Part shown: positions 8,945-51,734 of the stretch, piece by piece
How positions within the stretch are numbered: position 1 is the first letter of the stretch
Layout: each line of letters starts with the position of its first letter
Origin: Octopus sinensis
Taxonomy: Eukaryota
Assembly (NCBI RefSeq): GCF_006345805.1
Contig: NW_021833822.1
Location: forward strand, 1-54,136
Direction of reading: 5' to 3'
Length of the DNA: 54,136 nucleotides
Notes under the pieces: generated by a model
The model's database searches: none
The model's input: only the letters and a program-made list of their open reading frames with translations
What the model was told of the DNA's origin: nothing
Made by a program: the position numbers and the translations under genes

Positions 8945-11900
8945 TCGTGTAATCTACGCCGTTGAAAACACATATCTCTTAAGTATTGCATTAAAAAGCA
9001 AAGGAAAGGGACAACTTCTTCCTGAGCGGAAGCAACACTGCGTTTTTGAGCATTTATGCCTACCCTGATGCAGAATATAATGAGCTTCATTCCGTGGCCG
9101 GAGAGCAGTACCCTTAATTGTTACGATGCAACTTTTTAGAAGGATTTCATTACCAAAACGCATTATTACTGGTAATGTATACAACATCTATAATTCTGCA
9201 TTTGCCCGTGGCCTGTCTATGATCGGGTAATCTACGCCGTTGAAACACATATCTCTTAAGCATTTCATTAAAAAGCAAAGGAAAGGGACAACTTCTTCCT
9301 GAGCGGAAGCAACAGTGGGCTTTTGAGCATTTATGCCTACACTGATGCAGAATATAATGAGCTTCAATCCGTGGCCGGAGAGCAGTACCCTTAATTGTTA
9401 CGATGCAACTTTTTAGAAGGATTTCATTACCAAAACGCATTATTACTGGTAATGTATACAACATCTATAATTCTGCATTTGTCTGTGGCCTGTCTATGAT
9501 CGTGTAATCTATGCCGTTGAAAACACATATCTCTAAGTATTTCATTAAAAGCAAAGGAAAGGGACAACTTCTTCCTGAGCGGAAGCAACAGTGGGTTTTT
9601 GAGCATTTATGCCTACCCTGATGCAGAATATAATGAGCTTCAATCCGTGGCCGGAGAGCAGTACCCTTAATTGTTACGATGCAACTTTTTAGAAGGATTT
9701 CATTACCAAAACGCATTATTACTGGTAATGTATACAACGTCTATAATTCTGCATTTGCCCGTGACCTGTCTATGATCGTGTAATCTACGCCGTTGAAAAC
9801 ACATATCTCTTAAGCATTTCATTAAAAAGCAAAGGAAAGGGACAACTTCTTCCTGAGCGGAAGCAACAGTGGGTTTTTGAGCATTTATGCCTACCCTGAT
9901 GCAGAATATAATGAGCTTCAATCCGTGGCCGGAGAGCAGTACCCTTAATTGTTACGATGCAACTTTTTAGAAGGATTTCATTACCAAAACGCATTATTAC
10001 TGGTAATGTATACAACATCTATAATTCTGCATTTGCCCGTGACCTGTCTATGATCGTGTAATCTACGCCGTTGAAAACACATATCTCTTAAGCATTTCAT
10101 GAAAAAGCAAAGGAAAGGGACAACTTCTTCCTGAGCGGAAGCAACAGTGGGTTTTTGAGCATTTATGCCTACCCTGATGCAGAATATAATGAGCTTCATT
10201 CCGTGGCCGGAGAGCAGTACCCTTAATTGTTACATGCAACTTTTTAGAAGGATTTCATTCCAAAACGCATTATTACTGGTAATGTATACAACATCTATAA
10301 TTCTGCATTTGCCCGTGGCCTGTCTAAGATCGGGTAATCTACGCCGTTGAAAACACATATCTCTTAAGTATTTCATTAAAAAGCAAAGGAAAGGGACAAC
10401 TTCTTCCTGAGCAGAGGCAACAGTGGGTTTTTGAGCATTTATGCCTACCCTGATGCAGAATATAATGAGCTTCATTCCGTGGCCGGAGAGCAGTACCCTT
10501 ATTGTTACGATGCAACTCTTTAGAAGGATTTCATTCCCAAAACGCATTATTACTGGTAATGTATACAACATCTATAATTCTGCATTTGCCCGTGGCCTGT
10601 CTAAGATCGGGTAATCTACGCCGTTGAAAACACATATCTCTTAAGTATTTCATTAAAAAGCAAAGGAATGGGACAACTCCTTCCTGAGCGGAAGCAACAG
10701 TGGGTTTTAGAGCATTTATGCCTACCCTGATGCAGAATATAATGAGCTTCATTCCGTGTCCGGAGAGCAGTACCCTTAATTGTTACAATGCAACTTTTTA
10801 GAAGGATTTCATAACAAAACGCATTATTACTGGTAATGTATACAACATCTATAATTCTGCATTTGCCCGTGGCCTGTCTAAGATCGGGTAATCTACGCCG
10901 TTGAAAACACATATCTCTTAAGTATTTCATTAAAAAGCAAAGGAAAGGGACAACTTCTTCCTGAGCGGAAGCAACAGTGGGTTTTTGAGCATTTATGCCT
11001 ACCCTGATGCAGAATATAATGAGCTTCATTCCGTGGCCGGAGAGCAGTACCCTTAATTGTTACGATGCAACTTTTTAGAAGGATTTCATTCCCAAACGCA
11101 TTATTGCTGGTAATGTATACAACATCTAGAACTCTACATTTGCCCGTGGCCTGTCTATGATCGTGTAATCTACGCCGTTGAAAACACATATCTCTTAAGT
11201 ATTTCATTAAAAAGCAAAGGAAAGGGACAACTTCTTCCTGAGCGGAAGCAACAGTGGGTTTTTGAGCATTATGCCTACCCTGATGCAGAATATAATGAGC
11301 TTCATCCCGTAGCCGGAGAGCAGTACCCTTAATTGTTACGATGCAACTCTTTAGAAGGATTTCATTCCCAAAACGCATTATTACTGGTAATGTATACAAC
11401 ATCTATAATTCTGCATTTGCCCGTGGCCTGTCTATGATCGGGTAATCTACGCCGTTGTTTGAAAACACATATCTCTTAAGTATTTCATTAAAAAGCAAAG
11501 GAATGGGACAACTCCTTCCTGAGCGGAAGCAACAGTGGGTTTTAGAGCATTTATGCCTACCCTGATGCAGAATATAATGAGCTTCATTCCGTGTCCGGAG
11601 AGCAGTACCCTTAATTGTTACAATGCAACTTTTAGAAGGATTTCATTAACAAAACGCATTATTACTGGTAATGTATACAACATCTATAATTCTGCATTTG
11701 CCCGTGGCCTGTCTAGATCGGGTAATCTACGCCGTTGAAAACACATATCTCTTAAGTATTTCATTAAAAAGCAAAGGAAAGGGACAACTTCTTCCTGAGC
11801 GGAAGCAACAGTGGGTTTTTGAGCATTTATGCCTACCCTGATGCAGAATAATGAGCTTCATTCCGTGGCCGGAGAGCAGTACCCTTAATTGTTACGATGC

Positions 11901-14900
11901 AACTTTTTAGAAGGATTTCATTCCCAAAACGCATTATTGCTGGTAATGTATACAACATCTAGAACTCTACATTTGCCCGTGGCCTGTCTATGATCGTGTA
12001 ATCTACGCCGTTGAAAACCATATCTCTTAAGTATTTCATTAAAAAGCAAAGGAAAGGGACAACTTCTTCCTGAGCGGAAGCAACAGTGGGTTTTTGAGCA
12101 TTTATGCCTACCCTGATGCAGAATATAATGAGCTTCATCCCGTAGCCGGAGAGCAGTACCCTTAATTGTTACGATGCAACTTTTTAGAAGGATTTCATTC
12201 CCAAAACGCATTATTACTGGTAATGTATACAACATCTATAATTCTGCATTTGCCCGTGGCCTGTCTATGATCGTGTAATCTACGCCGTTGAAAACACATA
12301 TCTCTTAAGTATTTCATTAAAAAGCAAAGGAAGGGACAACTTCTTCGTGAGCGGAAGCAACAGTGGGTTTTTGAGCATTTATGCCTACCCTGATGCAGAA
12401 TATAATGAGCTTCATCCCGTAGCCGGAGAGCAGTACCCTTAATTGTTACGATGCAACTTTTTAGAAGGATTTCATTCCCAAAACGCATTATTACTGGTAA
12501 TGTATACAACATCTATAATTCTGCATTTGCCCGTGGCCTGTCTATGATCGTGTAATCTACGCCGTTGAAAACACATATCTCTTAAGTATTTCAATAAAAA
12601 GCAAAGGAATGGGACAACTCCTTCCTGAGCGGAAGCAACAGTGGGTTTTAGAGCATTTATGCCTACCCTGATGCAGAATATAATGAGCTTCATTCCGTGG
12701 CCGGAGAGCAGTACCCTTAATTGTTACAATGCAACTTTTTAGAAGGATTTCATTCCCAAAACGCATTATTACTGGTAATGTATACAACATCTATAATTCT
12801 GCATTTGCCCTGGCCTGTCTAAGATCGGGTAATCTACGCCGTTGAAAACACATATCTCTTAAGTATTTCATTAAAAAGCAAAGGAATGGGACAACTCCTT
12901 CCTGAGCGGAAGCAACAGTGGGTTTTAGAGCATTTATGCCTACCCTGATGCAGAATATAATGAGCTTCATTCCGTGGCCGGAGAGCAGTACCCTTAATTG
13001 TTACGATGCAACTCTTTAGAAGGATTTCATTCCAAAACGCATTATTACTGGTAATGTATACAACATCTATAATTCTGCATTTGCCCGTGGCCTGTCTATG
13101 ATCGGGTAATCTACGCCGTTGAAAACACATATCCCTTAAGTATTTCATTAAAAAGCAAAGGAAAGGGACAACTTCTTCTGAGCAGAGGCAACAGTGGGTT
13201 TTAGAGCATTTATGCCTACCCTGATGCAGAATATAATGAGCTTCATTCCGTGGCCGGAGAGCAGTACCCTTAATTGTTACGATGCAACTCTTTAGAAGGA
13301 TTTCATTCCCAAAACGCATTATTACTGGTAATGTATACAACATCTATAATTCTGCATTTGCCCGTGGCCTGTCTATGATCGGGTAATCTACGCCGTTGAA
13401 AACACATATCTCTTAAGTATTTCATTAAAAAGCAAAGGAATGGGACAACTCCTTCCTGAGCGGAAGCAACAGTGGGTTTTAGAGCATTTATGCCTACCCT
13501 GATGCAGAATATAATGAGCTTCATTCCGTGTCCGGAGAGCAGTACCCTTAATTGTTACATGCAACTTTTTAGAAGGATTTCATTAACAAAACGCATTATT
13601 ACTGGTAATGTATACAACATCTATAATTCTGCATTTGCCCGTGGCCTGTCTATGATCGGGTAATCTACGCCGTTGAAAACACATATCTCTTAAGTATTTC
13701 ATTAAAAAGCAAAGGAAAGGGACAACTTCTTCCTGAGCGGAAGCAACAGTGGGTTTTTGAGCATTTATGCCTACCCTGATGCAGAATATAATGAGCTTCA
13801 TTCCGTGGCCGGAGAGCAGTACCCTTAATTGTTACGATGCAACTTTTTAGAAGGATTTCATTCCCAAAACGCATTATTACTGGTAATGTATACAACATCT
13901 ATAATTCTGCATTTGCCCGTGGCCTGTCTATGATTGTGTAATCTACGCCGTTGAAACACATATCTCTTAAGTATTTCATTAAAAAGCAAAGGAATGGGAC
14001 AACTCCTTCCTGAGCGGAAGCAACAGTGGGTTTTAGAGCATTTATGCCTACCCTGATGCAGAATATAATGAGCTTCATTCCGTGGCCGGAGAGCAGTACC
14101 CTTAATTGTTACAATGCAACTTTTTAGAAGGATTTCATTCCCAAAACGCATTATTACTGGTAATGTATACAACATCTATAATTCTGCATTTGCCCATGGC
14201 CTGTCTAAGATCGGGTAATCTACGCCGTTGAAAACACATATCTCTTAAGTATTTCATTAAAAAGCAAAGGAAAGGGACAACTTCTTCGTGAGCGGAAGCA
14301 ACAGTGGGTTTTTGAGCATTTATGCCTACCCTGATGCAGAATATAATGAGCTTCATTCCGTGGCCGGAGAGCAGTACCCTTAATTGTTACGATGCAACTC
14401 TTTAGAAGGATTTCATTCCCAAAACGCATTATTACTGGTAATGTATACAACATCTATAATTCTGCATTTGCCCGTGGCCTGTCTATGATCGGGTAATCTA
14501 CGCCGTTGAAAACACATATCTCTTAAGTATTTCATTAAAAAGCAAAGGAATGGGACAACTCCTTCCTGAGCGGAAGCAACAGTGGGTTTTAGAGCATTTA
14601 TGCCTACCCTGATGCAGAATATAATGAGCTTCATACCGTGGCCGGAGAGCAGTACCCTTAATTGTTACGATGCAACTTTTTAGAAGGATTTCATTCCCAA
14701 AACGCATTATTACTGGTAATGTATACAACATCTATAATTCTGCATTTGCCCGTGGCCTGTCTATGATCGGGTAATCTACGCCGTTGAAAACACATATCTC
14801 TTAAGTATTTCATTAAAAAGCAAAGGAATGGGACAACTCCTTCCTGAGCGGAAGCAACAGTGGGTTTTTGAGCATTTATGCCTACCCTGATGCAGAATAT

Positions 14901-17900
14901 AATGAGCTTCATTCCGTGGCCGGAGAGCAGTACCCTTAATTGTTACAATGCAACTTTTAGAAGGATTTCATTCCCAAAACGCATTATTACTGGTAATGTA
15001 TACAACATCTATAATTCTGCATTTGCCCGTGGCCTGTCTAGATCGGGTAATCTACGCCGTTGAAAACACATATCTCTTAAGTATTTCATTAAAAAGCAAA
15101 GGAAAGGGACAACTTCTTCGTGAGCGGAAGCAACAGTGGGTTTTTGAGCATTTATGCCTACCCTGATGCAGAATATAATGAGCTTCATTCCGTGGCCGGA
15201 GAGCAGTACCCTTAATTGTTACGATGCAACTTTTTAGAAGGATTTCATTCCCAAAACGCATTATTACTGGTAATGTATACAACATCTAATAATCTGCATT
15301 TGCCCGTGGCCTGTCTATGATCGGGTAATCTACGCCGTTGAAAACACATATCTCTTAAGTATTTCATTAAAAAGCAAAGGAAAGGGACAACTTCTTCCTG
15401 AGCGGAAGCAACAGTGGGTTTTTGAGCATTTATGCCTACCCTGATGCAGAATATAATGAGCTTCATTCCGTGGCCGGAGAGCAGTACCCTTAATTGTTAC
15501 GATGCAACTTTTTAGAAGGATTTCATTCCCAAACGCATTATTGCTGGTAATGTATACAACATCTATAATTCTGCATTTGCCCGTGGCCTGTCTATGATCG
15601 GGTAATCTACGCCGTTGAAAACACATATCTCTTAAGTATTTCATTAAAAGCAAGGAAAGGGACAACTTCTTCCTGAGCGGAAGCAACAGTGGGTTTTTGA
15701 GCATTTATGCCTACCCTGATGCAGAATATAATGAGCTTCATCCCGTAGCCGGAGAGCAGTACCCTTAATTGTTACGATGCAACTTTTTAGAAGGATTTCA
15801 TTCCCAAACGCATTATTACTGGTAATGTATACAACATCTATAATTCTGCATTTGCCCGTGGCCTGTCTATGATCGGGTAATCTACGCCGTTGAAAACACA
15901 TATCTCTTAAGTATTTCATTAAAAAGCAAAGGAAAGGGACAACTTCTTCGTGAGCGGAAGCAACAGTGGGTTTTTGAGCATTTATGCCTACCCTGATGCA
16001 GAATATAATGAGCTTCATTCCGTGGCCGGAGGGCAGTACCCTTATTGTTACGATGCAACTTTTTAGAAGGATTTCATTCCCAAAACGCATTATTACTGGT
16101 AATGTATACAACATCTATAATTCTGCATTTGCCCGTGGCCTGTCTATGATCGGGTAATCTACGCCGTTGAAAACACATATCTCTTAAGTATTTCATTAAA
16201 AAGCAAAGGAATGGGACAACTCTTCCTGAGCGGAAGCAACAGTGGGTTTTAGAGCATTTATGCCTACCCTGATGCAGAATATAATGAGCTTCAATCCGTG
16301 GCCGGAGAGCAGTACCCTTAATTGTTACATGCAACTTTTTAGAAGGATTTCATTCCCAAAACGCATTATTGCTGGTAATGTATACAACATCTATAATTCT
16401 GCATTTGCCCGTGGCCTGTCTATGATCGGGTAATCTACGCCGTTGAAAAACATATCTCTTAAGTATTTCATTAAAGAGCAAAGGAAAGGGACAACTTCTT
16501 CCTGAGCGGAAGCAACAGTGGGTTTTTGAGCATTTATGCCTACCCTGATGCAGAATATAATGAGCTTCATCCCGTCGCCGGAGAGCAGTACCCTTAATTG
16601 TTACGATGCAACTTTTTAGAAGGATTTCATTCCCAAAACGCATTATTACTGGTAATGTATACAACATCTATAATTCTGCATTTGCCCGTGGCCTGTCTAT
16701 GATCGGGTAATCTACGCCGTTGAAAACACATATCTCTTAAGTATTTCATTAAAAAGCAAAGAAAGGGACAACTTCTTCGTGAGCGGAAGCAACAGTGGGT
16801 TTTTGAGCATTTATGCCTACCCTGATGCAGAATATAATGAGCTTCATTCCGTAGCCGGAGAGCAGTACCCTTAATTGTTACGATGCAACTTTTTAGAAGG
16901 ATTTCATTCCCAAAACGCATTATTACTGGTAATGTATGCAACATCTATAATTCTGCATTTGCCCGTGGCCTGTCTATGATCGGGTAATCTACGCCGTTGA
17001 AAACACATATCTCTTAAGTATTTCATTAAAAGCAAAGGAAAGGGACAACTTCTTCCTGAGCGGAAGCAACAGGGCGTTTTGAGCATTTATGCCTACCCTG
17101 ATGCAGAATATAATGAGCTTCATTCCGTGGCCGGAGAGTAGTACCCTTAATTGTTACGATGCAACTTTTTAGAAGGATTTCATTCCCAAAACGCATTATT
17201 GCTGGTAATGTATACAACATCTATAATTCTGCATTTGCCCGTGGCCTGTCTATGATCGGGTAATCTACGCGCGTTGAAAACACATATCTCTTAAGTATTT
17301 CATTAAAAAGCAAAGGAAAGGGACAACTTCTTCGTGAGCGGAAGCAACAGTGGGTTTTTGAGCATTTATGCCTACCCTGATGCAGAATATAATGAGCTTC
17401 ATCCCGTAGCCGGAGAGCAGTACCCTTAATTGTTACGATGCAACTTTTTAGAAGGATTTCATTCCCAAAACGCATTATTACTGGTAATGTATACAACATC
17501 TATAATTCTGCATTTGCCCGTGGCCTGTCTATGATCGTGTAATCTACGCCGTTGAAAACACATATCACTTAAGTATTTCATTAAAAAGCAAAGGAAAGGG
17601 ACAACTTCTTCCTGAGCGGAAGCAACAGTGGGTTTTTGAGCATTTATGCCTACCCTGATGCAGAATATAACGAGCTTCAATCCGTGGCCGGAGGGCAGTA
17701 CCCTTAATTGTTACGATGCAACTTTTTAGAAGGATTTCATTCCCAAACGCATTATTACTGGTAATGTATACAACATCTATAATTCTGCATTTGCCCGTGG
17801 CCTGTCTATGATGGGTAATCTATCTACGCCGTGAAAACACATATCTCTTAAGTATTTCATTAAAAAGCAAAGGAATGGGACAACTCCTTCCTGAGCGGAA

Positions 17901-23900: not shown

Positions 23901-26900
23901 CCGTTGAAAACACATATCTCTTAAGTATTTCATTAAAAAGCAAAGGAAAGGGACAACTTCTTCGTGAGCGGAAGCAACAGTGGGTTTTTGAGCATTTATG
24001 CCTACCCTGATGCAGAATATAATGAGCTTCATCCCGTAGCCGGAGAGCAGTACCCTTAATTGTTACGATGCAACTTTTTAGAAGGATTTCATTCCCAAAA
24101 CGCATTATTACTGGTAATGTATACAACATCTATAATTCTGCATTTGCGCCGTGGCCTGTCTATGATCGTGTAATCTACGCCGTTGAAAACACATATCTCT
24201 TAAGTATTTCATTAAAAAGCAAAGGAAAGGGACAACTTCTTCCTGAGCAGAGGCAATAGTGGGATTTTGAGCATTTATGCCTACCCTGATGCAGAATATA
24301 ATGAGCTTCATTCCGTGGCCGGGAGCAGTACCCTTTATTGTTACGATGCAACTCTTTAGAAGGATTTCATTCCCAAAACGCATTATTACTGGTAATGTAT
24401 ACAACATCTATAATTCTGCATTTGCCCGTGGCCTGTCTATGATCGGGTAATCTACGCCGTTGAAAACACATATCTCTTAAGTATTTCATTAAAAAGCAAA
24501 GGAATGGACAACTCCTTCCTGAGCGGAAGCAACAGTGGGTTTTAGAGCATTTATGCCTACCCTGATGCAGAATATAATGAGCTTCATTCCGTGGCCGGAG
24601 AGCAGTACCCTTAATTGTTACGATGCAACTTTTTAGAAGGATTTCATTCCAAAACGCATTATTACTGGTAATGTATACAACATCTATAATTCTGCATTTG
24701 CCCGTGGCCTGTCTATGATCGGGTAATCTACGCCGTTGAAAACACATATCTCTTAAGTATTTCATTAAAAAGCAAAGGAAGGGACAACTCCTTCCTGAGC
24801 GGAAGCAACAGTGGGTTTTAGAGCATTTATGCCTACCCTGATGCAGAATATAATGAGCTTCATTCCGTGGCCGGAGAGCAGTACCCTTAATTGTTACAAT
24901 GCAACTTCTAGAAGGATTTCATTCCCAAAACGCATTATTACTGGTAATGTATACAACATCTATAATTCTGCATTTGCCCGGCCTGTCTAAGATCGGGTAA
25001 TCTACGCCGTTGAAACACATATCTCTTAAGTATTTCATTAAAAAGCAAAGGAAAGGGACAACTTCTTCCTGAGCGGAAGCAACATGGGTTTTTTGAGCAT
25101 TTATGCCTACCCTGATGCAGAATATAATGAGCTTCATTCCGTGGCCGGAGAGCAGTACCCTAATTGTTACGATGCAACTTTTTGAAGGATTTCATTCCCA
25201 AACGCATTATTACTGGTAATGTATACAACATATATAATTCTGTCTGCATTTGCCCGTGGCCTGTCTATGATCGGGTAATCTACGCCGTTGAAAACACATA
25301 TCTCTTAAGTATTTCATTAAAAAGCAAAGGAAAGGACAACATCTTCCTGAGCGGAAGCAACAGTGGGTTTTTGAGCATTTATGCCTACCCTGATGCAGAA
25401 TATAATGAGCTTCATTCTGTGGCCGGAGAGCAGTACCCTTAATTGTTACGATGCAACTTTTTAGAGGATTTCATTCCCAAAACGCATTATGCTGGTAATG
25501 TATACAACATCTATATTCTGCATTTGCCCGTGGCCTGTCTATGATCGGGTAATCTACGCCGTTGAAACACATATCTCTTAAGTATTTCATTAAAAAGCAA
25601 AGGAAAGGGACAACTTCTTCGTGAGCGGAAGCAACAGTGGGTTTTTGAGCATTTATGCCTACCCTGATGCAGAATATAATGAGCTTCATCCCGTAGCCGG
25701 AGAGCAGTACCCTTAATTGTTACGATGCAACTTTTTAGAAGGATTTCATTCCCAAAACGCATTATTACTGGTAATGTATACAACATCTATAATTCTGCAT
25801 TTGCGCGTGGCCTGTCTATGATCGTGTAATCTACGCCGTTGAAAACACATATCTCTTAAGTATTTCATTAAAAAGCAAAGGAAAGGGACAACTTCTTCCT
25901 GAGCAGAGGCAATAGTGGGATTTTGAGCATTTATGCCTACCCTGATGCAGAATATAATGAGCTTCATTCCGTGGCCGGAGAGCAGTACCCTTTATTGTTA
26001 CGATGCAACTCTTTAGAAGGATTTCATTCCCAAAACGCATTATTACTGGTAATGTATACAACATCTATAATTCTGCATTTGCCCGTGGCCTGTCTATGAT
26101 CGGGTAATCTACGCCGTTGAAAACACATATCTCTTAAGTATTTCATTAAAAAGCAAAGGAATGGGACAACTCCTTCCTGAGCGGAAGCAACAGTGGGTTT
26201 TAGAGCATTTATGCCTACCCTGATGCAGAATATAATGAGCTTCATTCCGTGGCCGGAGAGCAGTACCCTTAATGTTACGATGCAACTTTTTAGAAGGATT
26301 TCATTCCCAAAACGCATTATTACTGGTAATGTATACAACATCTATAATTCTGCATTTGCCCGTGGCCTGTCTATGATCGGGTAATCTACGCCGTTGAAAA
26401 CACATATCTCTTAAGTATTTCATTAAAAAGCAAAGGAATGGGACAACTCCTTCCTGAGCGGAAGCAACAGTGGGTTTTAGAGCATTTATGCCTACCCTGA
26501 TGCAGAATATAATGAGCTTCATTCCGTGGCCGGAGAGCAGTACCCTTAATTGTTACAATGCAACTTTCTAGAAGGATTTCATTCCCAAAACGCATTATTA
26601 CTGGTAATGTATACAACATCTATAATTCTGCATTTGCCCGTGGCCTGTCTAAGATCGGGTAATCTACGCCGTTGAAAACACATATCTCTTAAGTATTTCA
26701 TTAAAAAGCAAAGGAAAGGGACAACTTCTTCCTGAGCGGAAGCAACAGTGGGTTTTTGAGCATTTATGCCTACCCTGATGCAGAATATAATGAGCTTCAT
26801 TCCGTGGCCGGAGAGCAGTACCCTTAATTGTTACGATGCAACTTTTTAGAAGGATTTCATTCCCAAAACGCATTATTACTGGTAATGTATACAACATATA

Positions 26901-29900
26901 TAATTCTGCATTTGCCCGTGGCCTGTCTATGATCGGGTAATCTACGCCGTTGAAAACACATATCTCTTAAGTATTTCATTAAAAAGCAAAGGAAAGGGAC
27001 AACATCTTCCTGAGCGGAAGCAACAGTGGGTTTTTGAGCATTTATGCCTACCCTGATGCAGAATATAATGAGCTTCATTCTGTGGCCGGAGAGCAGTACC
27101 CTTAATTGTTACGATGCAACTTTTTAGAAGGATTTCATTCCCAAAACGCATTATTGCTGGTAATGTATACAACATCTATAATTCTGCATTTGCCCGTGGC
27201 CTGTCTATGATCGGGTAATCTACGCCGTTGAAAACACATATCTCTTAAGTATTTCATTAAAAAGCAAAGGAAAGGGACAACTTCTTCCTGAGCGGAAGCA
27301 ACAGTGGTTTTTGAGCATTTATGCCTACCCTGATGCAGAATATAATGAGCTTCATCCCGTAGCCGGAGAGCAGTACCCTTAATTGTTACGATGTGCAACT
27401 TTTTAGAAGGATTTCATTCCCAAAACGCATTATTACTGGTAATGTATACAACATCTATAATTCTGCATTTGCCCGTGGCCTGTCTATGATCGGGTAATCT
27501 ACGCCGTTGAAAACACATATCTCTTAAGTATTTCATTAAAAAGCAAAGGAAAGGGACAACTTCTTCGTGAGCGGAAGCAACAGGGGTTTTTGAGCATTTA
27601 TGCCTACCCTGATGCAGAATATAATGAGCTTCATTCCGTGGCCGGAGGGCAGTACCCTTAATTGTTACGATGCAACTTTTTAGAAGGATTTCATTCCCAA
27701 AACGCATTATTACTGGTAATGTATACAACATCTATAATTCTGCATTTGCCCGTGGCCTGTCTATGATCGGGTAATCTACGCCGTTGAAAACACATATCTC
27801 TTAAGTATTTCATTAAAAAGCAAAGGAATGGGACAACTCCTTCCTGAGCGGAAGCAACAGTGGGTTTTAGAGCATTTATGCCTACCCTGATGCAGAATAT
27901 AATGAGCTTCAATCCGTGGCCGGAGAGCAGTACCCTTAATTGTTACAATGCAACTTTTTAGAAGGATTTCATTCCCAAAACGCATTATTACTGGTAATTT
28001 ATGCAACATCTATAATTCTGCATTTGCCCGTGGCCTGTCTATGATCGGGTAATCTACGCCGTTGAAAACACATATCTCTTAAGTATTTCATTAAAAAGCA
28101 AAGGAAAGGGACAACTTCTCCTGAGCGAGCGGAAGCAACAGTGCGTTTTGAGCATTTATGCCTACCCTGATGCAGAATATAATGAGCTTCATTCCGTGGC
28201 CGGAGAGCAGTACCCTTAATTGTTACGATGCAACTTTTTAGAAGGATTTCATTCCCAAAACGCATTATTGCTGGTAATGTATACAACATCTATAATTCTG
28301 CATTTGCCCGTGGCCTGTCTATGATCGGGTAATCTACGCCGTTGAAAACACATATCTCTTAAGTATTTCATTAAAAAGCAAAGGAATGGGACACTCCTTC
28401 CTGAGCGGAAGCAAGCAACAGTGGGTTTTAGAGCATTTATGCCTACCCTGATGCAGAATATAATGAGCTCAATCCGTGGCCGGAGAGCAGTACCCTTAAT
28501 TGTTACAATGCAATTTTAGAAGGATTTCATTCCCAAAACGCATTATTACTGGTAATTTATGCAACATCTATAATTCTGCATTTGCCCGTGGCCTGTCTAT
28601 GATCGGGTAATCTACGCCGTTGAAAACACAATCTCTTAAGTATTTCATTAAAAAGCAAAGGAAAGGGACAACTTCTTCCTGAGCGGAAGCAACAGTGCGT
28701 TTTTGAGCATTTATGCCTACCCTGATGCAGAATATAATGAGCTTCATTCCGTGGCCGGAGAGCAGTACCCTTAATTGTTACGATGCAACTTTTTAGAAGG
28801 ATTTCATTCCCAAAACGCATTATTGCTGGTAATGTATACAACATCTATAATTCTGCATTTGCCCGTGGCCTGTCTATGATCGGGTAATCTACGCCGTTGA
28901 AAACACATATCTCTTAAGTATTTCATTAAAAAGCAAAGGAAAGGGACAACTTCTTCCTGAGCGGAAGCAACAGTGGGTTTTGAGCATTTATGCCTACCCT
29001 GATGCAGAATATAATGAGCTTCATCCCGTAGCCGGAGAGCAGTACCCTTAATTGTTACGATGCAACTTTTTAGAAGGATTTCATTCCCAAAACGCATTAT
29101 TACTGGTAATGTATACAACATCTATAATTCTGCATTTGCCGTGGCCTGTCTATGATCGGGTAATCTACGCCGTGAAAACACATATCTCATAAGTATTTCA
29201 TTAAAAAGCAAAGGAAAGGGACAACTTCTTCGTGAGCGGAAGCAACAGTGGGTTTTTGAGGATTTATGCCTACCCTGATGCAGAATATAATGAGCTTCAT
29301 CCCGTAGCCGGAGAGCAGTACCCTTAATTGTTACGATGCAACTTTTTAGAAGGATTTCATTCCCAAAACGCATTATTACTGGTAATGTATACAACATCTA
29401 TAATTCTGCATTTGCCCGTGGCCTGTCTATGATCGGGTAATCTACGCCGTTGAAAACACATATCTCTTAAGTATTTCATTAAAAAGCAAAGGAAAGGGAC
29501 AACTTCTTCCTGAGCGGAAGCAACAGTGGGTTTTTGAGCATTTATGCCTACCCTGATGCAGAATATAATGAGCTTCATCCCGTAGCCGGAGAGCAGTACC
29601 CTTAATTGTTACGATGCAACTTTTTAGAAGGATTTCATTCCCAAAACGCATTATTACTGGTAATGTATACAACATCTATAATTCTGCATTTGCCCGTGGC
29701 CTGTCTATGATCGGGTAATCTACGCCGTTGAAAACACATATCTCTTAAGTATTTCATTAAAAAGCAAAGGAAAGGGACAACTTCTTCGTGAGCGGAAGCA
29801 ACAGTGGGTTTTTGAGCATTTATGCCTACCCTGATGCAGAATATAATGAGCTTCATTCCGTGGCCGGAGGGCAGTACCCTTAATTGTTACGATGCAACTT

Positions 29901-32900
29901 TTTAGAAGGATTTCATTCCCAAAACGCATTATTACTGGTAATGTATACAACATCTATAATTCTGCATTTGCCCGTGGCCTGTCTATGATCGGGTAATCTA
30001 CGCCGTTGAAAACACATATCTCTTAAGTATTTCATTAAAAAGCAAAGGAATGGGACAACTCCTTCCTGAGCGGAAGCAACAAGTGGGTTTTAGAGCATTT
30101 ATGCCTACCCTGATGCAGAATATAATGAGCTTCAATCCGTGGCCGGAGAGCAGTACCCTTAATTGTTACAATGCAACTTTTTAGAAGGATTTCATTCCCA
30201 AAACGCATTATTGCTGGTAATGTATACAACATCTATAATTCTGCATTTGCCCGTGGCCTGTCTATGATCGGGTAATCTACGCCGTTGAAAACACATATCT
30301 CTTAAGTATTTCATTAAAGTGCAAAGGAAAGGGACAACTTCTTCCTGAGCGGAAGCAACAGTGGGTTTTTGAGCATTTATGCCTACCCTGATGCAGAATA
30401 TAATGAGCTTCATCCCGTAGCCGGAGAGAGGTACCCTTAATTGTTACGATGCAACTTTTTAGAAGGATTTCATTCCCAAAACGCATTATTACTGGTAATG
30501 TATACAACATCTATAATTCTGCATTTGCCCGTGGCCTGTCTATGATCGGGTAATCTACGCCGTTGAAAACACATATCTCTTAAGTATTTCATTAAAAAGC
30601 AAAGGAAAGGGACAACTTCTTCGTGAGCGGAAGCAACAGTGTGTTTTTGAGCATTTATGCCTACCCTGATGCAGAATATAATGAGCTTCATCCCGTAGCC
30701 GGAGAGCAGTACCCTTAATTGTTACGATGCAACTTTTTAGAAGGATTTCATTCCCAAAACGCATTATTACTGGTAATTTATGCAACATCTATAATTCTGC
30801 ATTTGCCCGTGGCCTGTCTATGATCGGGTAATCTACGCCGTTGAAAACACATATCTCTTAAGTATTTCATTAAAAAGCAAAGGAAAGGGACAACTTCTTC
30901 CTGAGCGGAAGCAACAGTGCGTTTTTGAGCATTTATGCCTACCCTGATGCAGAATATAATGAGCTTCATTCCGTGGCCGGAGAGCAGTACCCTTAATTGT
31001 TACGATGCAACTTTTTAGAAGGATTTCATTCCCAAAACGCATTATTGCTGGTAATGTATACAACATCTATAATTCTGCATTTGCCCGTGGCCTGTCTATG
31101 ATCGGGTAATCTACGCCGTTGAAAACACATATCTCTTAAGTATTTCATTAAAAAGCAAAGGAAAGGGACAACTTCTTCCTGAGCGGAAGCAACAGTGGGT
31201 TTTTGAGCATTTATGCCTACCCTGATGCAGAATATAATGAGCTTCATCCCGTAGCCGGAGAGCAGTACCCTTAATTGTTACGATGCAACTTTTTAGAAGG
31301 ATTTCATTCCCAAAACGCATTATTACTGGTAATGTATACAACATCTATAATTCTGCATTTGCCCGTGGCCTGTCTATGATCGGGTAATCTACGCCGTTGA
31401 AAACACATATCTCTTAAGTATTTCATTAAAAAGCAAAGGAAAGGGACAACTTCTTCCTGAGCGGAAGCAACAGTGCGTTTTTGAGCATTTATGCCTACCC
31501 TGATGCAGAATATAATGAGCTTCATCCCGTAGCCGGAGAGCAGTACCTTAATTGTTACGATGCAACTTTTAGAAGGATTTCATTCCCAAAACGCATTATT
31601 ACTGGTAATGTATACAACATCTATAATTCTGCTGCATTTGCCCGTGGCCTGTCTATGATCGGGTAATCTACGCCGTTGAAAACACATATCTCTTAAGTAT
31701 TTCATTAAAAAGCAAAGGAAAGGGACAACTTCTTCCTGAGCGGAAGCAACAGTGCGTTTTTGAGCATTTATGCCTACCCTGATGCAGAATATAATGAGCT
31801 TCATCCCGTAGCCGGAGAGCAGTACCCTTAATTGTTACGATGCAACTTTTTAGAAGGATTTCATTCCCAAAACGCATTATTACTGGTAATGTATACAACA
31901 TCTATAATTCTGCATTTGCCCGTGGCCTGTCTATGATCGTGTAATCTACGCCGTTGAAAACATATATCACTTAAGTATTTCATTAAAAAGCAAAGGAAAG
32001 GGACAACTTCTTCCTGAGCGGAAGCAACAGTGGGTTTTTGAGCATTTATGCCTACCCTGATGCAGAATATAATGAGCTTCATTCCGTGGCCGGAGAGCAG
32101 TACCCTTAATTGTTACGATGCAACTTTTTAGAAGGATTTCATTCCAAAACGCATTATTGCTGGTAATGTATACAACATCTATAATTCTGCATTTGCCCGT
32201 GGCCTGTCTATGATCGGGTAATCTACGCCGTTGAAAACACATATCTCTTAAGTATTTCATTAAAAAGCAAAGGAAAGGGACAACTTCTTCCTGAGCGGAA
32301 GCAACAGTGGGTTTTAGAGCATTTATGCCTACCCTGATGCAGAATATAATGAGCTTCATCCCGTAGCCGGAGAGCAGTACCCTTAATTGTTACGATGCAA
32401 CTTTTAGAAGGATTTCATTCCCAAAACGCATTATTACTGGTAATGTATACAACATCTATAATTCTGCATTTGCCCGTGGCCTGTCTATGATCGGGTAATC
32501 TACGCCGTTGAAAACACATATCTCATAAGTATTTCATTAAAAAGCAAAGAAAGGGACAACTTCTTCGTGAGCGGAAGCAACAGTGGGTTTTTGAGGATTT
32601 ATGCCTACCCTGATGCAGAATATAATGAGCTTCATCCCGTAGCCGAGAGCAGTACCCTTAATTGTTACGATGCAACTTTTAGAAGGATTTCATTCCCAAA
32701 ACGCATTATTACTGGTAATGTATACAACATCTATAATTCTGCATTTGCCCGTGGCCTGTCTATGATCGGGTAATCTACGCCGTTGAAAACACATATCTCT
32801 TAAGTATTTCATTAAAAAGCAAAGGAAAGGGACAACTTCTTCCTGAGCGGAAGCAACAGTGCGTTTTTGAGCATTTATGCCTACCCTGATGCAGAATATA

Positions 32901-35900
32901 ATGAGCTTCATCCCGTAGCCGGAGAGCAGTACCCTTAATTGTTACGATGCAACTTTTTAGAAGGATTTCATTCCCAAAACGCATTATTACTGGTAATGTA
33001 TACAACATCTATAATTCTGCATTTGCCCGTGGCCTGTCTATGATCGTGTAATCTACGCCGTTGAAAACACATATCACTTAAGTATTTCATTAAAAAGCAA
33101 AGGAAAGGGACAACTTCTTCCTGAGCGGAAGCAACAGTGAGTTTTTGAGCATTTATGCCTACCCTGATGCAGAATATAATGAGATTCAATCCGTGGCCGG
33201 AGGGCAGTACCCTTAATTGTTACGATGCAACTTTTTAGAAGGATTTTATTCCCCAAACGCATTATTACTGGTAATGTATACAACATCTATAATTCTGCAT
33301 TTGCCCGTGGCCTGTCTATGATCGGGTAATCTACGCCGTTGAAAACACATATCTCTTAAGTATTTCATTAAAAGCAAAGGAATGGGACAACTCCTTCCTG
33401 AGCGGAAGCAACAGTGGGTTTTAGAGCATTTATGCCTACCCTGATGCAGAATATAATGAGCTTCAATCCGTGCCGGAGAGCAGTACCCTTAATTGTTACA
33501 ATGCAACTTTTTAGAAGGATTTCATTCCCAAAACGCATTATTGCTGGTAATGTATACAACATCTATAATTCTGCATTTGCCCGTGGCCTGTCTATGATCG
33601 GGTAATCTACGCCGTTGAAAACACATATCTCTTAAGTATTTCATTAAAGAGCAAAGGAAAGGGACAACTTCTTCCTGAGCGGAAGCAACAGTGGGTTTTT
33701 GAGCATTTATGCCTACCCTGATGCAGAATATAATGAGCTTCATCCCGTAGCCGGAGAGCAGTACCCTTAATTGTTACGATGCAACTTTTTAGAAGGATTT
33801 CATTCCCAAAACGCATTATTACTGGTAATGTATACAACATCTATAATTCTGCATTTGCCCGTGGCCTGTCTATGATCGGGTAATCTACGTCGTTGAAAAC
33901 ACATATCTCTTAAGTATTTCATTAAAAAGCAAAGGAAAGGGACAACTTCTTCGTGAGCGGAAGCAACAGTGGGTTTTTGAGCATTTATGCCTACCCTGAT
34001 GCAGAATATAATGAGCTTCATCCCGTAGCCGGAGAGCAGTACCCTTAATTGTTACGATGCAACTTTTTAGAAGGATTTCATTCCCAAAACGCATTATTAC
34101 TGGTAATGTATACAACATCTATAATTCTGCATTTGCCCGTGGCCTGTCTATGATCGTGTAATCTACGCCGTTGAAAACACATATCACTTAAGTATTTCAT
34201 TAAAAAGCAAAGGAAAGGGACAACTTCTTCCTGAGCGGAAGCAACAGTGGGTTTTAGAGCATTTATGCCTACCCTGATGCAGAATATAATGAGCTTCATC
34301 CCGTAGCCGGAGAGCAGTACCCTTAATTGTTACGATGCAACTTTTAGAAGGATTTCATTCCCAAAACGCATTATTACTGGTAATGTATACAACATCTATA
34401 ATTCTGCATTTGCCCGTGGCCTGTCTATGATCGTGTAATCTACGCCGTTGAAAACATATATCACTTAAGTATTTCATTAAAAAGCAAAGGAAAGGACAAC
34501 TTCTTCCTGAGCGGAAGCAACAGTGGGTTTTTGAGCATTTATGCCTACCCTGATGCAGAATATAATGAGATTCAATCCGTGGCCGGAGGGCAGTACCCTT
34601 AATTGTTACGATGCAACTTTTTAGAAGGATTTTATTCCCCAAACGCATTATTACTGGTAATGTATACAACATCTATAATTCTGCATTTGCCCGTGGCCTG
34701 TCTATGATCGGGTAATCTACGCCGTTGAAAACACATATCTCTTAAGTATTTCATTAAAAAGCAAAGGAATGGGACAACTCCTTCCTGAGCGGAAGCAACA
34801 GTGGGTTTTAGAGCATTTATGCCTACCCTGATGCAGAATATAATGAGCTTCAATCCGTGGCCGGAGAGCAGTACCCTTAATTGTTACAATGCAACTTTTT
34901 AGAAGGATTTCATTCCCAAAACGCATTATTGCTGGTAATGTATACAACATCTATAATTCTGCATTTGCCCGTGGCCTGTCTATGATCGGGTAATCTACGC
35001 CGTTGAAAACACATATCTCTTAAGTATTTCATTAATAAGCAAAGGAAAGGGACAACTTCTTCCTGAGCGGAAGCAACAGTGGGTTTTTGAGCATTTATGC
35101 CTACCCTGATGCAGAATATAATGAGCTTCATCCCGTAGCCGGAGAGCAGTACCCTTAATTGTTACGATGCAACTTTTTAGAAGGATTTCATTCCCAAAAC
35201 GCATTATTACTGGTAATGTATACAACATCTATAATTCTGCATTTGCCCGTGGCCTGTCTATGATCGGGTAATCTACGTCGTTGAAAACACATATCTCTTA
35301 AGTATTTCATTAAAAAGCAAAGGAAAGGGACAACTTCTTCGTGAGCGGAAGCAACAGTGGGTTTTTGAGCATTTATGCCTACCCTGATGCAGAATATAAT
35401 GAGCTTCATCCCGTAGCCGGAGAGCAGTACCCTTAATTGTTACGATGCAACTTTTTAGAAGGATTTCATTCCCAAAACGCATTATTACTGGTAATGTATA
35501 CAACATCTATAATTCTGCATTTGCCCGTGGCCTGTCTATGATCGGGTAATCTACGCCGTTGAAAACACATATCTCTTAAGTATTTCATTAAAAAGCAAAG
35601 GAAAGGGACAACTTCTTCCTGAGCGGAAGCAACAGTGCGTTTTTGAGCATTTATGCCTACCTGATGCAGAATATAATGAGCTTCATCCCGTAGCCGGAGA
35701 GCAGTACCCTTAATTGTTACGATGCAACTTTTTAGAAGGATTTCATTCCCAAAACGCATTATTACTGGTAATGTATACAACATCTATAATTCTGCATTTG
35801 CCCGTGGCCTGTCTATGACCGGGTATTCTACGCCGTTGAAAACACATATCTCTTAAGTATTTCATTAAAAAGCAAAGGAATGGGACAACTCCTTCCTGAG

Positions 35901-38863
35901 CGGAAGCAACAGTGGGTTTTAGAGCATTTATGCCTACCCTGATGCAGAATATAATGAGCTTCATTCCGTGGCCGGAGAGCAGTACCCTTAATTGTTACAA
36001 TGCAACTTTTTAGAAGGATTTCATTCCCAAAACGCATTATTACTGGTAATGTATACAACATCTATAATTCTGCATTTGCCCGTGGCCTGTCTAAGATCGG
36101 GTAATCTACGCCGTTGAAAACACATATCTCTTAAGTATTTCATTAAAAAGCAAAGGAAAGGGACAACTTCTTCCTGAGCAGAGGCAACAGTGGGCTTTTG
36201 AGCATTTATGCCTACCCTGATGCAGAATATAATGAGCTTCATTCCGTGGCCGGAGAGCAGTACCCTTAATTGTTACGATGCAACTCTTTAGAAGGATTTC
36301 ATTCACAAAACGCATTATTACTGGTAATGTATACAACATCTATAATTCTGCATTTGCCCGTGGCCTGTCTATGGTCGGGTAATCTACGCCGTTGAAAACA
36401 CATATCTCTTAAGTATTTCATTAAAAAGCAAAGGAATGGGACAACTCCTTCCTGAGCGGAAGCAACAGTGGTTTTAGAGCATTTATGCCTACCCTGATGC
36501 AGAATATAATGAGCTTCATTCCGTGGCCGGAGAGCAGTACCCTTAATTGTTACGATGCAACTTTTTAGAAGGATTTCATTCCCAAAACGCATTATTACTG
36601 GTAATGTATACAACATCTATAATTCTGCATTTGCCCGTGGCCTGTCTATATCGGGTAATCTACGCCGTTGAAAACACATATCTCTTAAGTATTTCATTAA
36701 AAAGCAAGGAAAGGGACAACTTCTTCCTGAGCGGAAGCAACAGTGGGTTTTTGAGCATTTATGCCTACCCTGATGCAGAATATAATGAGCTTCATCCCGT
36801 AGCCGGAGAGCAGTACCCTTAATTGTTACGATGCAACTTTTTAGAAGGATTTCATTCCCAAAACGCATTATTACTGGTAATGTATACAACATCTATAATT
36901 CTGCATTTGCCCGTGGCCTGTCTATAATCGGGTAATCTACGCCGTTGAAAACACATATCTCTAAGTATTTCATTAAAAAGCAAAGGAAAGGGACAACTTC
37001 TTCCTGAGCGGAAGCAACAGTGGGTTTTTGAGCATTTATGCCTACCCTGATGCAGAATATAATGAGCTTCATCCCGTAGCCGGAGAGCAGTACCCTTAAT
37101 TGTTACGATGCAACTTTTTAGAAGGATTTCATTCCAAAACGCATTATTACTGGTAATATATACAACATCTATAATTCCGTGGCCTGTCTATGATCGTGTA
37201 AGCTACGCCGTTGAAAACACATATCTCTTAAGTATTTCATTAAAAAGCAAAGGAAAGGGACAACTTCTTCCTGAGCGGAAGCAACAGTGGGTTTTTGAGC
37301 ATTTATGCCTACCCTGATGCAGAATATAATGAGCTTCATCCCGTAGCCGGAGAGCAGTACCCTTAATTGTTACGATGCAACTTTTAGAAGGATTTCATTC
37401 CCAAAACGCATTATTACTGGTAATGTATACAACATCTATAATTCTGCATTTGCCGTGGCCTGTCTATGATCGTGTAATCTACGCCGTTGAAAACACATAT
37501 CTCTTAAGTATTTCATTAAAAAGCAAAGGAAAGAGACAACTTTTTCTGAGCGGAAGCAACAGTGGGTTTTTGAGCATTTATGCCTACCCTGATGCAGATT
37601 ATAATGAGCTTCAATCCGTGACCGGAGAGCAGTACCCTTAATTGTTACGATGCAACTTTTTAGAAGGATTTCATTCCCAAAACGCATTATTACTGGTAAT
37701 GTATACAATATCTATAATTCTGCATTTGCCCGTGGCCTGTCTAAGATCGGGTAATCTACGCTGTTGAAAACGCATATCTCTTAAGTATTTCATTAAAAAG
37801 CAAAGGACTGGGACAACTCCTTCCTGAGCGGAAGCAACAGTGGGTTTTAGAGCATTTATGCCTACCCTGATGCAGAATATAATGATCTTCATTCCGTGGC
37901 CGGAGAGCAGTACTCTTAATTGTTACAATGCAACTTTTTAGAAGGATTTCATTCCCAAAACGCATTATTACTGGTAATGTATACAACATCTATAATTCTG
38001 CATTTGCCCGTGGCCTGTCTAAGATCGGGTAATCTACGCCGTTGAAAACACATATCTCTTAAGTATTTCATTAAAAAGCAAAGGAAAGGGACAACTTCTT
38101 CCTGAGCAGAGGCATCAGTGGGTTTTTGAGCATTTATGCCTACCCTGATGCAGAATATAATGAGCTTCATTCCGTGGCCGGAGAGCAGTACCCTTATTGT
38201 TACGATGCAACTTTTTAGAAGGATTTCATTCCCAAAACGCATTATTGCTGGTAATGTATACAACATCTATAATTCTGCATTTGCCCCTGGCCTGTCTATG
38301 ATCGGGTAATCTACGCCGTTGAAAACACATATCTCTTAAGTATTTCATTAAAAAGCAAAGGAAAGGGACAACTTCTTCGTGAGCGGAAGCAACAGTGGGT
38401 TTTTGAGCATTTATGCCTACCCTGATGCAGAATATAATGAGCTTCATCCCGTAGCCGGAGAGCAGTACCTACCCTTAATTGTTACGATGCAACTTTTTAG
38501 AAGGATTTCATTCCCAAAACGCATTATTACTGGTAATGTATACAACATCTATAATTCTGCATTTGCCCGTGGCCTGTCTATGATCGGGTAATCTACGCCG
38601 TTTAAAACACATATCTCTTAAGTATTTCATTAAAAAGCAAAGGAAAGAGACAACTTCTTCGTGAGCGGAAGCAACAGTGGGTTTTTGAGCATTTATGCCT
38701 ACCCTGATGCAGAATATAATGAGCTTCATTCCGTAGCCGGAGAGCAGTACCCTTAATTGTTACGATGCAACTTTTTAGAAGGATTTCATTCCCAAAACGC
38801 ATTATTACTGGTAATGTATACAACATCTATAATTCTGTATTTGACCGAGGCTTTTCTAAGATC
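8945..38863. repeat. ~278-bp tandem satellite array, about 107-108 monomers
   Basis: Monomer aatctacgccgttgaaaacac...gcccgtggcctgtctatgatcgggt repeated head-to-tail; near-identical ORFs recur at 277-278 bp spacing in the ORF track. Copy number estimated as length/278. Confidence 0.99.
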
Positions 38864-39564
38864 TCGGAATTTTTCTGAGTGGAAGCGACGCTGGGTGTTG
38901 GAGCGGAAATCTTTATCTTCTACGAAGGCGATCAATTTTCTCCTGACAACATGTTACATGATTTTGTCAACATGAAAGGCTATAAAGCCAGGTGTATAAC
39001 TTTTAGCATCTTGTCTACTAACTCCTTTATGGAGAGGACAAATTATGCCTTCCTTTATGTTTTTGGGAAATCTTCCACTAGAATAGAGTCTCTGCAAGAG
39101 GATCTGTTGTACATTTTCTTGCGCCACTTTGGTTTTTATGGAAGTCAATAAGTAGGATGGTTGTATACTGTCAATTTAACGTGACAGTAGGGGATTACAC
39201 CACCGCTGTTTAGCCCTAGGAAGCATCGACGCTTCCTGATTGTTTCGACACATTTTTTTCCTGTGTCCTTATATATTTACGCATGGGAGACAAACACCCC
39301 CAGCAGCCAGGCCTGCATCTAGAGACACGCATGTTTCAGGATCTTTGTCCATCATCGGTCTAGAGTAGCAGAAGCCCGCCAGCCGCAGACATCTGTCTCG
39401 ATTTCGTAAAAATATATATATCTAATTTTCTGTGAAGTTTATTCACTGATCACCAAAATCAGAAATATTAGATTTCTAAACATTTAGAAATTTAATATTT
39501 CTGATTTCAATAAGTAGGATTGTGGGGGAATACCTACTGGGTGTTGTGGATATATAATGTGTGG

Positions 39565-51733: not shown

Positions 51734-51734
51734 T

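What the first reader, a model, noticed from the sequence alone, without database searches (positions are those of the whole stretch)
8945..38863. 30-kb satellite whose monomer is a condensed mosaic of CR1 reverse-transcriptase motifs
Seen: minus-strand translation of the 278-bp unit gives SKT(H/Q)CCFRSGRSC, FPLLFNEIL/RDM, FNGVDY(T/P), IDVVYITSNNAF and LLKSCIVTIK/GYCSP. Known: CR1 ORF2 has, in this order, QHGFRxGRSC, GPLLF..DM, YADDTK, DLGxxMS...F and KS.V...LDYCSP.W spread over roughly 1 kb. The flank (8700-8850) extends the first motif into clearer CR1 sequence (VSLAFHVDKIIELVVSRKLIEFLED...SETQRRFESGRS). Inference: the satellite arose locally from an internally deleted LINE relic. Only the RSGRSC match and its flank extension are strong; the others are weak alone but colinear.
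Basis: partly seen in the sequence, partly recalled or inferred. Interest (0 to 1): 0.75.

Follow-up and report, generated by a model that had tools for sequence, protein, structure and literature searches.

The report
Satellite built from ribosomal-protein gene copy
This 30-kb tandem repeat is built mostly from a broken, intron-less copy of the gene for ribosomal protein S8, with only a 35-base scrap of a retrotransposon, and it likely grew on the spot from the junk DNA beside it as a likely functionless repeat that also turns up in RNA-derived sequence data.

Summary
The array is real: 108 head-to-tail copies of 278 bp. It is not a mosaic of CR1 motifs. About 175 bp of the monomer comes from an intron-less copy of the ribosomal protein S8 gene (RPS8, parent on contig C4). 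'IDVVYITSNNAF' and 'LLKSCIVTIK' are RPS8 exon 4. Only 33-39 bp (the RSGRSC motif) match a dispersed LINE, and about 60 bp have no identified source. Three older copies of the LINE/RPS8 junction flank the array. The monomer corresponds to window 8392-8759 minus a 97-bp deletion, joined head to tail. The array occurs at one locus: 163 of 163 exact pattern hits lie here or in an apparent allele on C27 with 66 copies. Monomer words occur in runs under six organism labels. Four RNA-type runs (one study) hold spliced RPS8 mRNA, monomers and flank; strand is unknown. Best reading: a locally born, passively transcribed satellite with no function. An antisense or small-RNA effect on RPS8 is not excluded (about 10%).

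The parts
8945..38863 (.). Satellite array, 108 x 278 bp, head to tail; mean monomer-to-monomer substitution distance 2.3-3.1%
26761..26936 (-). RPS8 part of a representative monomer (W63): a few bases of exon 3 plus most of exon 4, about 79% identical to the gene, frame broken
26720..26758 (-). LINE part of the representative monomer (RT start, the RSGRSC motif), 33-39 bp
26659..26719 (.). Segment B of the representative monomer; source not identified; also present in flank copies 1 and 2
8190..8626 (-). RPS8 intron-less copy 2: exons 3-4-5-6 joined, ending before the stop codon, no poly(A) found
8392..8759 (.). Flank interval that corresponds to the monomer (8392-8563 plus 8661-8759; 8564-8660 missing from the monomer)
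8627..8722 (.). Segment B/B' between LINE and RPS8 in copy 2; source unknown
8723..8870 (-).
8864..8941 (-). Displaced LINE piece (profile 817-895) at the left edge of the array
38864..39136 (-). Right edge: RPS8 exon-3 bases joined directly to LINE RT (profile 1379-1640), without segment B
42323..42764 (-). RPS8 intron-less copy 3 (exons 3-6), in the twin of the 3.5-kb left flank
4463..4670 (-). RPS8 copy 1 (end of exon 4, exon 5), most diverged copy, cut by two SINE heads at about 4671-5046
5142..5416 (-). LINE RT piece upstream of copy 1 (profile 1375-1648)
4361..4461 (-). LINE resumes downstream of copy 1 (profile from 1625); about 20 LINE bases occur on both sides of the insert, resembling a target-site duplication (15 of 20 alike, read by eye)
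5152..8674 (+). Left arm of a 3.5-kb direct duplication that brackets the array (96% to the right arm)
38872..42810 (+). Right arm of the 3.5-kb duplication, with an extra SINE at about 39560-39934

Best explanation
This is a single-locus satellite whose 278-bp unit is about 175 bp of a broken intron-less RPS8 gene copy, 33-39 bp of LINE reverse-transcriptase DNA and about 60 bp of unknown source; it likely arose in place from its flank, likely changes length by unequal exchange, and is likely transcribed only passively, with no function. Steps: (1) RPS8 mRNA was reverse-transcribed into DNA (shown: exons 3-6 joined without their 10.3-, 3.1- and 3.1-kb introns) and likely landed inside a LINE copy at its RSGRSC codons (inferred from LINE sequence on both sides of copy 1 with a 20-bp overlap). 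(2) The LINE/B/RPS8 junction was duplicated locally several times (shown: three flank copies and scrambled LINE pieces). (3) A 368-bp piece spanning the junction lost 97 bp, at a 7-bp stretch shared at 6 of 7 bases, and was joined head to tail (shown by alignment; the repair mechanism is inferred). (4) The unit was amplified and is still turning over (shown: 108 versus 66 copies with matching ends; unequal exchange inferred). (5) Flank and array are likely read as one long RNA (inferred from contigs of one study).
For: RPS8 identity: Pfam PF01201 E 1.4e-33 and 3.8e-11 for the related copy and the parent exon. An array frame aligns to the parent exon at 32 of 56 residues, E 4e-16; the same frame hits PF01201 directly but below the cutoff (18.1 of 30.2 bits) and gives nothing against a LINE RT stretch (E 2.3). 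The parent gene has AG/GT-bounded exons and a 207-codon open frame over exons 2-6. Local descent: monomer, copy 2 and copy 3 share 19 changes from the gene in 150 columns, plus shared deletions; the monomer differs from copies 3 and 2 at 18 and 21 columns but from the gene at 32. One locus: 163 of 163 exact 24-mer hits fall in this array (101) or in the C27 array (62), none on the reverse strand. No reading frame: longest stop-free run in a three-monomer stretch is 100 codons, 124 in one frameshifted unit. No sign of selection to stay like RPS8: the monomer is about as far from the gene (32 of 150) as copies 2 and 3 (36, 33). RNA: 4 of 4 RNA-type runs laid hold contigs whose loose ends read as spliced RPS8 exon 3-4 and 4-5 joints, and also monomer and flank contigs.
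Against: No poly(A) tail was found on any copy. Copy 1 stops at exon 5 while copies 2 and 3 run into exon 6, so step 1 is not a clean insertion record. Segment B is unexplained. 'No function' rests on absence: the monomer keeps 24- and 23-nt exact matches to RPS8 mRNA (in 89 and 64 of 108 units). It persists under six organism labels, the RPS8 and B parts vary less than the LINE part (1.6% and 1.1% versus 2.9%), and its contig depth in RNA-type runs is not negligible beside RPS8 mRNA. The 108 versus 66 difference may be an assembly collapse. RNA evidence is contigs only, from one study, with library type guessed and no strand.
Confidence: 0.75

Rival explanations
1. The array is a source of RNA antisense to RPS8 (plus-strand transcript, or fold-back RNA) that is cut into siRNA or piRNA and tunes RPS8 mRNA, in the manner of Su(Ste) against Stellate.
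For: The plus strand of every unit is antisense to RPS8 exon 4, with 24- and 23-nt exact matches. Monomer, head-to-tail joint and flank-array junction occur in cDNA-containing runs. In X16 the depth ratio to DNA run X1 is 0.11-0.24 over 8200-9225, against 0.0003-0.0009 for the least covered high-copy repeats nearby, so DNA carry-over is an unlikely source. Two runs (X13, X16) hold a contig with monomer-like sequence inverted next to the left junction.
Against: Strand and small RNAs were not observable. Identity to the mRNA is only about 79%, versus about 90% for Su(Ste)/Ste (PMC10567549, section 'Main'). There is no excess similarity to the gene over the flank copies. The inverted form is not in this assembly. 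Silencing a single-copy housekeeping gene would be costly (general knowledge).
Confidence: 0.1
2. One reading: the monomer is an internally deleted CR1 ORF2 that keeps five RT motifs in order.
For: One motif (RSGRSC) is truly LINE and extends into the flank.
Against: 3 of 4 monomer segments score at shuffle level against 24 LINE copies, of which 10, 7, 5 and 7 carry the GPLLF, YADD, DLG and LDY motifs. Two of those segments match RPS8 far above all 100 shuffles.
Confidence: 0.02
3. Step 1 differs: the LINE/B/RPS8/LINE arrangement was made in one reverse-transcription event in which the LINE enzyme switched templates to RPS8 mRNA and to a third RNA (B), rather than by insertion into an existing LINE copy.
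For: No poly(A); the RPS8 piece is internal at both ends; an unexplained 95-bp segment lies between LINE and RPS8; the LINE resumes with a 20-bp overlap.
Against: It needs three switches. The overlap is as expected for a target-site duplication, and the locus shows many later rearrangements that could have removed the tail.
Confidence: 0.25
4. The 30-kb length, or the second array, is an assembly artefact: contig C10293 is a redundant or inflated copy of the C27 locus.
For: The whole window aligns to C27 at 98.5-98.9%, with more gap openings than mismatches. The 42-unit difference is one internal block.
Against: The flanks differ by 62 mismatches in 15,323 and 27 in 6,630 columns, as alleles would. 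The extra units carry their own variant patterns. DNA runs of three organism labels show monomer contigs far deeper than flank contigs (2392 vs 65, 288 vs 8-19, 372 vs 16-41), so an array exists regardless.
Confidence: 0.1

Closest known systems
Transposon-derived satellites, e.g. chicken HinfI repeat (CR1 ORF2/3' UTR), PROsat and cetacean satellite (L1) (PMC9659126, passages read)
   Same: Tandem unit that contains LINE sequence and arose from dead retroelement DNA.
   Different: LINE is only about 13% of this monomer; most of it is a cellular mRNA copy.
De novo satellite birth at a single locus; satellites seeded by rDNA spacers or TEs (PMC5615363, passages read)
   Same: Local duplication of an arbitrary sequence at one place, then amplification; single-locus stage.
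   Different: The seed is a protein-coding housekeeping mRNA copy, which those passages do not list, and the precursor copies are preserved on both sides.
Su(Ste) repeats of Drosophila (PMC10567549, abstract and 'Main' read)
   Same: Tandem repeats homologous to a protein-coding gene; transposon sequence next to gene-like sequence; transcribed.
   Different: Su(Ste) is about 90% identical to a harmful repetitive target and makes proven antisense piRNAs. Here identity is about 79%, the target would be a housekeeping gene, and neither strand nor small RNAs are known.
D4Z4/DUX4 retrogene macrosatellite (PMC12376486 and others, search listing and abstract starts only)
   Same: Tandem array whose unit comes from a retroposed gene copy; copy number varies.
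   Different: D4Z4 units are kilobases long and keep an intact ORF (unit size recalled). This unit is 278 bp, a fragment, and frame-broken.
Ribosomal-protein processed pseudogenes (recalled knowledge)
   Same: Intron-less, 5'-truncated, disabled copy of a highly expressed ribosomal-protein mRNA.
   Different: No poly(A) remains, and part of it has been amplified about a hundredfold in tandem.

Membership tests
Satellite DNA | Long head-to-tail array of a unit over 100 bp | tested here: met
   108 x 278 bp over 29.9 kb
Satellite DNA | Units homogenised relative to their source | tested here: met
   2.3-3.1% between units versus 12-14% to flank copies
Satellite DNA | Higher-order repeat structure (optional feature) | tested here: inconclusive
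   Only a weak dip at lags 5, 6 and 12 (0.026, 0.023, 0.026 versus about 0.028)
Satellite DNA | Heterochromatic or centromeric chromatin | not testable with these tools
   No chromatin data; single locus at 16.9 of 21.3 Mb on C27
mRNA-derived (processed) copy of RPS8 | Introns of the parent gene absent | tested here: met
   Exons 3-6 contiguous in copies 2 and 3; parent introns 10.3, 3.1 and 3.1 kb. The exon 3-4 joint itself is overlapped by a 27-nt deletion
mRNA-derived (processed) copy of RPS8 | Intact parent gene elsewhere | tested here: met
   C4:70.53-70.55 Mb, 207 open codons over exons 2-6, PF01201
mRNA-derived (processed) copy of RPS8 | Disabled reading frame | tested here: met
   Frameshifting deletions and stops
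Textbook processed pseudogene | 3' poly(A) tail | tested here: not met
   0 of 3 flank copies reach the stop codon or a tail; filed as an intron-less fragment, not a complete processed pseudogene
Textbook processed pseudogene | Target-site duplication | tested here: inconclusive
   About 20 LINE bases on both sides of copy 1, 15 of 20 alike, but copy 1 lacks exon 6
   1 of 4 segments above shuffles; single profile interval 1609-1647
CR1-group LINE (donor of the 35-bp piece) | APE endonuclease plus RT in ORF2 | tested here: met
   PF03372 E 1e-6 and PF00078 E 4.9e-10 in dispersed copies
CR1-group LINE (donor of the 35-bp piece) | Placement in the CR1 clade by RT phylogeny; 3' tail type | not tested
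Su(Ste)-like antisense suppressor repeat | Tandem repeats homologous to an expressed gene | tested here: met
   About 79% to RPS8 exon 4; 24- and 23-nt exact stretches
Su(Ste)-like antisense suppressor repeat | Antisense transcription | tested here: inconclusive
   Present in cDNA-containing runs, but contigs give no strand
Su(Ste)-like antisense suppressor repeat | Small RNAs and repression of the target | not testable with these tools
   No raw small-RNA reads were offered
Retrogene macrosatellite (D4Z4 type) | Intact ORF in each unit | tested here: not met
   Unit is a frame-broken exon fragment; 278 is not a multiple of 3

The most novel reading that the evidence does not exclude
A satellite born from a ribosomal-protein mRNA copy has become a copy-number-variable source of antisense or fold-back RNA against RPS8, so that array length tunes a core ribosomal protein through siRNA or piRNA in several related species.
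Probability: 0.08. Interest if true: 0.8.

Novelty: new variant of a known kind. Interest (0 to 1): 0.4.

Why it matters
It is an unusually complete record of a satellite's birth: the parent gene, the retro-copy, three precursor junction copies, both monomer-forming joints and two length variants can all be read. It shows that a housekeeping mRNA copy, not only a transposon or rDNA spacer, can seed a conventional short-unit satellite. No such case came up in searches, which cover open-access papers only and were judged from listings. It offers a testable locus for whether gene-derived satellites acquire antisense effects on their parent. Practically, 100-170 RPS8-like units can distort read mapping and repeat annotation for RPS8.

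Tried and rejected
CR1 mosaic: rejected by profile search and shuffles. A second idea of mine, that the monomer is one contiguous RT piece (DVVY read as the RT domain-3 motif), was rejected once the RPS8 exon was found. Source of segment B: no match above shuffles to the RPS8 gene region, its intron 2, the mRNA or the LINE, on either strand where tested. There was no hit better than E 0.065 in 10 LINE-centred 10-kb stretches. Genome searches returned only this locus, but one search scored just 40 of 123 candidates and 2 of 2. Host gene: 101 of 123 stop-free stretches of 75 aa or more around the locus were scanned. 4 of 101 hit Pfam, all below cutoff, two of them retroelement zf-RVT; short exons would be missed. 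Rfam: 0 hits in 3 loci. Run search: no holder is on record as RNA; the RNA label of X13, X14, X16 and X20 is a guess, supported here by spliced RPS8 contigs. In X16 two flank bins (4456-4663, 5080-5287) had no cover; this is not used as evidence. Whether the inverted joint exists in DNA could not be read because the joint table was flooded by repeats. Earlier-findings look-ups gave nothing. The mRNA model had the exon 3 end one base long; this was corrected. Supplements of papers were not consulted.
Full report
Observation. Tandem Repeats Finder gives one array at 8945-38863, period 278, 108.0 copies, 96% matches. The window is the whole of contig C10293 of a 2.72-Gb animal assembly. The SINE and microsatellites look like octopus to me; that is recalled and comes from no call.

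What the monomer is made of. A genome search with one monomer found, outside this locus, an AG/GT-bounded exon at C4:70,543,381-556 and a fragment at C4:24.11 Mb. Both translate as ribosomal protein S8: PF01201, E 3.8e-11 and 1.4e-33. The parent gene has six exons and 207 open codons over exons 2-6. Monomer positions 103-272 are 79% identical to exon 4. A stop-free array frame aligns to that exon at 32 of 56 residues, E 4e-16. It hits PF01201 itself below cutoff and does not align to a LINE RT stretch (E 2.3; that stretch begins after the RSGRSC motif). So 'IDVVYITSNNAF' and 'LLKSCIVTIK' are RPS8.

The LINE test. The right flank matches a dispersed family (40 scored of 696 candidates; 34 are away from this locus; 24 were fetched and used). 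Its copies carry APE and RT domains. A profile of the 24 copies hits a three-monomer stretch only at positions 1609-1647, the RSGRSC motif; the other motifs lie at 1917-2370. Against 100 shuffles each, only monomer 62-100 beats chance on the LINE (0 of 100 reach it). Segments 1-61, 103-200 and 201-278 do not (42, 52 and 86 of 100). The last two beat all shuffles on RPS8. Segment B (1-61) matched nothing tested.

The precursor is next door. Three flank copies hold RPS8 sequence: copy 1 (4463-4670), copy 2 (8190-8626) and copy 3 (42323-42764). Copies 2 and 3 run through exons 3-6 without the 10.3-, 3.1- and 3.1-kb introns, so they come from mRNA. None reaches a poly(A) tail. Around copy 1 the LINE stops at profile 1648 and resumes at 1625; about 20 bases are present on both sides, 15 of 20 alike. 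This resembles a target-site duplication, but copy 1 lacks exon 6, so a template-switch origin is not excluded. Copies 2 and 3 lie in a 3.5-kb direct duplication (96%) that brackets the array, and LINE pieces are scrambled through both flanks. The monomer maps to 8392-8563 plus 8661-8759. The 97-bp deletion has a 7-bp near-identity at its ends (6 of 7), and the head-to-tail joint shares one base. In 150 columns, monomer, copy 2 and copy 3 share 19 changes from the gene. The monomer differs from copies 3 and 2 at 18 and 21 columns, and these differ from each other at 15. The monomer lineage therefore descends from the local copy and probably split before, or about when, the flanks duplicated (inference).

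One locus, two lengths. The window aligns end to end with C27:16.88-16.92 Mb, where the array has 66 copies. An exact 24-mer occurs 163 times in the assembly, all forward: 101 here and 62 on C27. This rules out other young arrays, not diverged ones. By diagnostic columns, read by eye, the first 21 and last 43 split units agree between the two arrays and one internal block of about 42 units differs. The flanks differ by about 0.4% mismatches. Allelic length variation by unequal exchange is the simplest reading; an assembly collapse is possible.

Other samples. 20 of 24 listed runs, from 9 studies and six organism labels, hold up to 0.37 of the 27 sampled monomer words. Three DNA-type runs (labels A, B, C) were laid. 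All have monomer contigs much deeper than flank contigs, and A and B have contigs bridging the left flank into the array. Depth is not a copy number. Four runs guessed to be RNA (one study) each hold a contig that lies on the monomer with 24 other letters. Its loose ends read, by my comparison, as spliced RPS8 exon 3-4 and 4-5 joints, so these libraries contain cDNA. All four also hold monomer contigs; three show the head-to-tail joint and three the flank-array junction. For X16, depth relative to DNA run X1 is 0.11-0.24 across 8200-9225 but 0.0003-0.0009 on the least covered high-copy repeats nearby. Its 20.6 million contig letters could not be a deep DNA cover of this genome. Transcription of flank and array is therefore likely, but it rests on contigs from one study and gives no strand. 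X13 and X16 also hold a contig in which monomer-like sequence is inverted next to position 8698; this form is absent from the assembly.

How it most likely works. It is a passenger. Retro-copying, repeated local duplication, a small deletion and tandem amplification made the array; unequal exchange likely keeps changing its length; a long read-through RNA likely covers it. It has no usable frame, no Rfam family, no detected host gene and no excess likeness to RPS8. The rival worth testing is antisense action on RPS8, because 24- and 23-nt exact matches survive in 89 and 64 of 108 units.

Comparison. LINE-containing satellites are known, including the chicken HinfI repeat with CR1 ORF2 (PMC9659126, passages). 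Single-locus birth from an arbitrary sequence, with rDNA spacers and TEs as seeds, is the standard model (PMC5615363, passages). Su(Ste) is a gene-derived tandem repeat that makes antisense piRNAs (PMC10567549, abstract and 'Main'). D4Z4 is a retrogene macrosatellite (PMC12376486, listing only). I found no report of a short-unit satellite built from a ribosomal-protein mRNA copy in searches, and none on this repeat in searches. These cover open-access text, were judged from listings, and no supplements were read.

Verdict. Observation partly confirmed; interpretation mostly replaced. A new variant of a known kind: a satellite seeded by an RPS8 mRNA copy joined to a LINE scrap, with its precursors preserved. 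Interest 0.4.

Noticed in passing
L017:5079-5354 (G000:C4:24.11 Mb): A second, much younger intron-less RPS8 fragment (exons 2, 3 and the first 76 bp of exon 4), 96-100% identical to the gene.
   Followed up: partly
window 6390-7960 and 40500-42100: Two 96%-identical copies of the 3' half of a retroelement on the plus strand, with a CCHC knuckle followed by YTWRHN. It looks like an R2/NeSL-type element (recalled label; Pfam gave no matching family).
   Followed up: partly
window 4671-5046: Two SINE heads in opposite orientation replace part of RPS8 copy 1; a full SINE sits at about 39560-39934 in only one arm of the duplication.
   Followed up: no
runs X13 and X16, joint 8698|9188: A contig joins the 3' end of the R2-like element to about 200 nt of inverted, diverged monomer-like sequence and then the left junction; if transcribed with the array it could fold back. 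Not in this assembly.
   Followed up: partly
run X1, window 8045-8961: Flank contigs are 3-5 times deeper (197-327) than the contig at 4104-4692 (65), hinting at extra copies of the flank-array unit in organism A.
   Followed up: no
whole window vs G000:C27:16,880,984-16,923,492: Contig C10293 is a redundant haplotype of a placed region.
   Followed up: yes
window 52844-52900: About 9.5 degenerate GGGTTA units, telomere-like, at an internal position.
   Followed up: no
window 45759-46497, 49961-50196, 51373-52095: Small tandem repeats of 243 bp x3, 56 bp x4.2 and 359 bp x2, also present on C27; the neighbourhood has many short tandem duplications.
   Followed up: no
window 15333-15704 (minus): A one-unit frameshift leaves a 124-codon stop-free frame through the RPS8 and LINE parts; probably chance or a sequencing indel.
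   Followed up: partly
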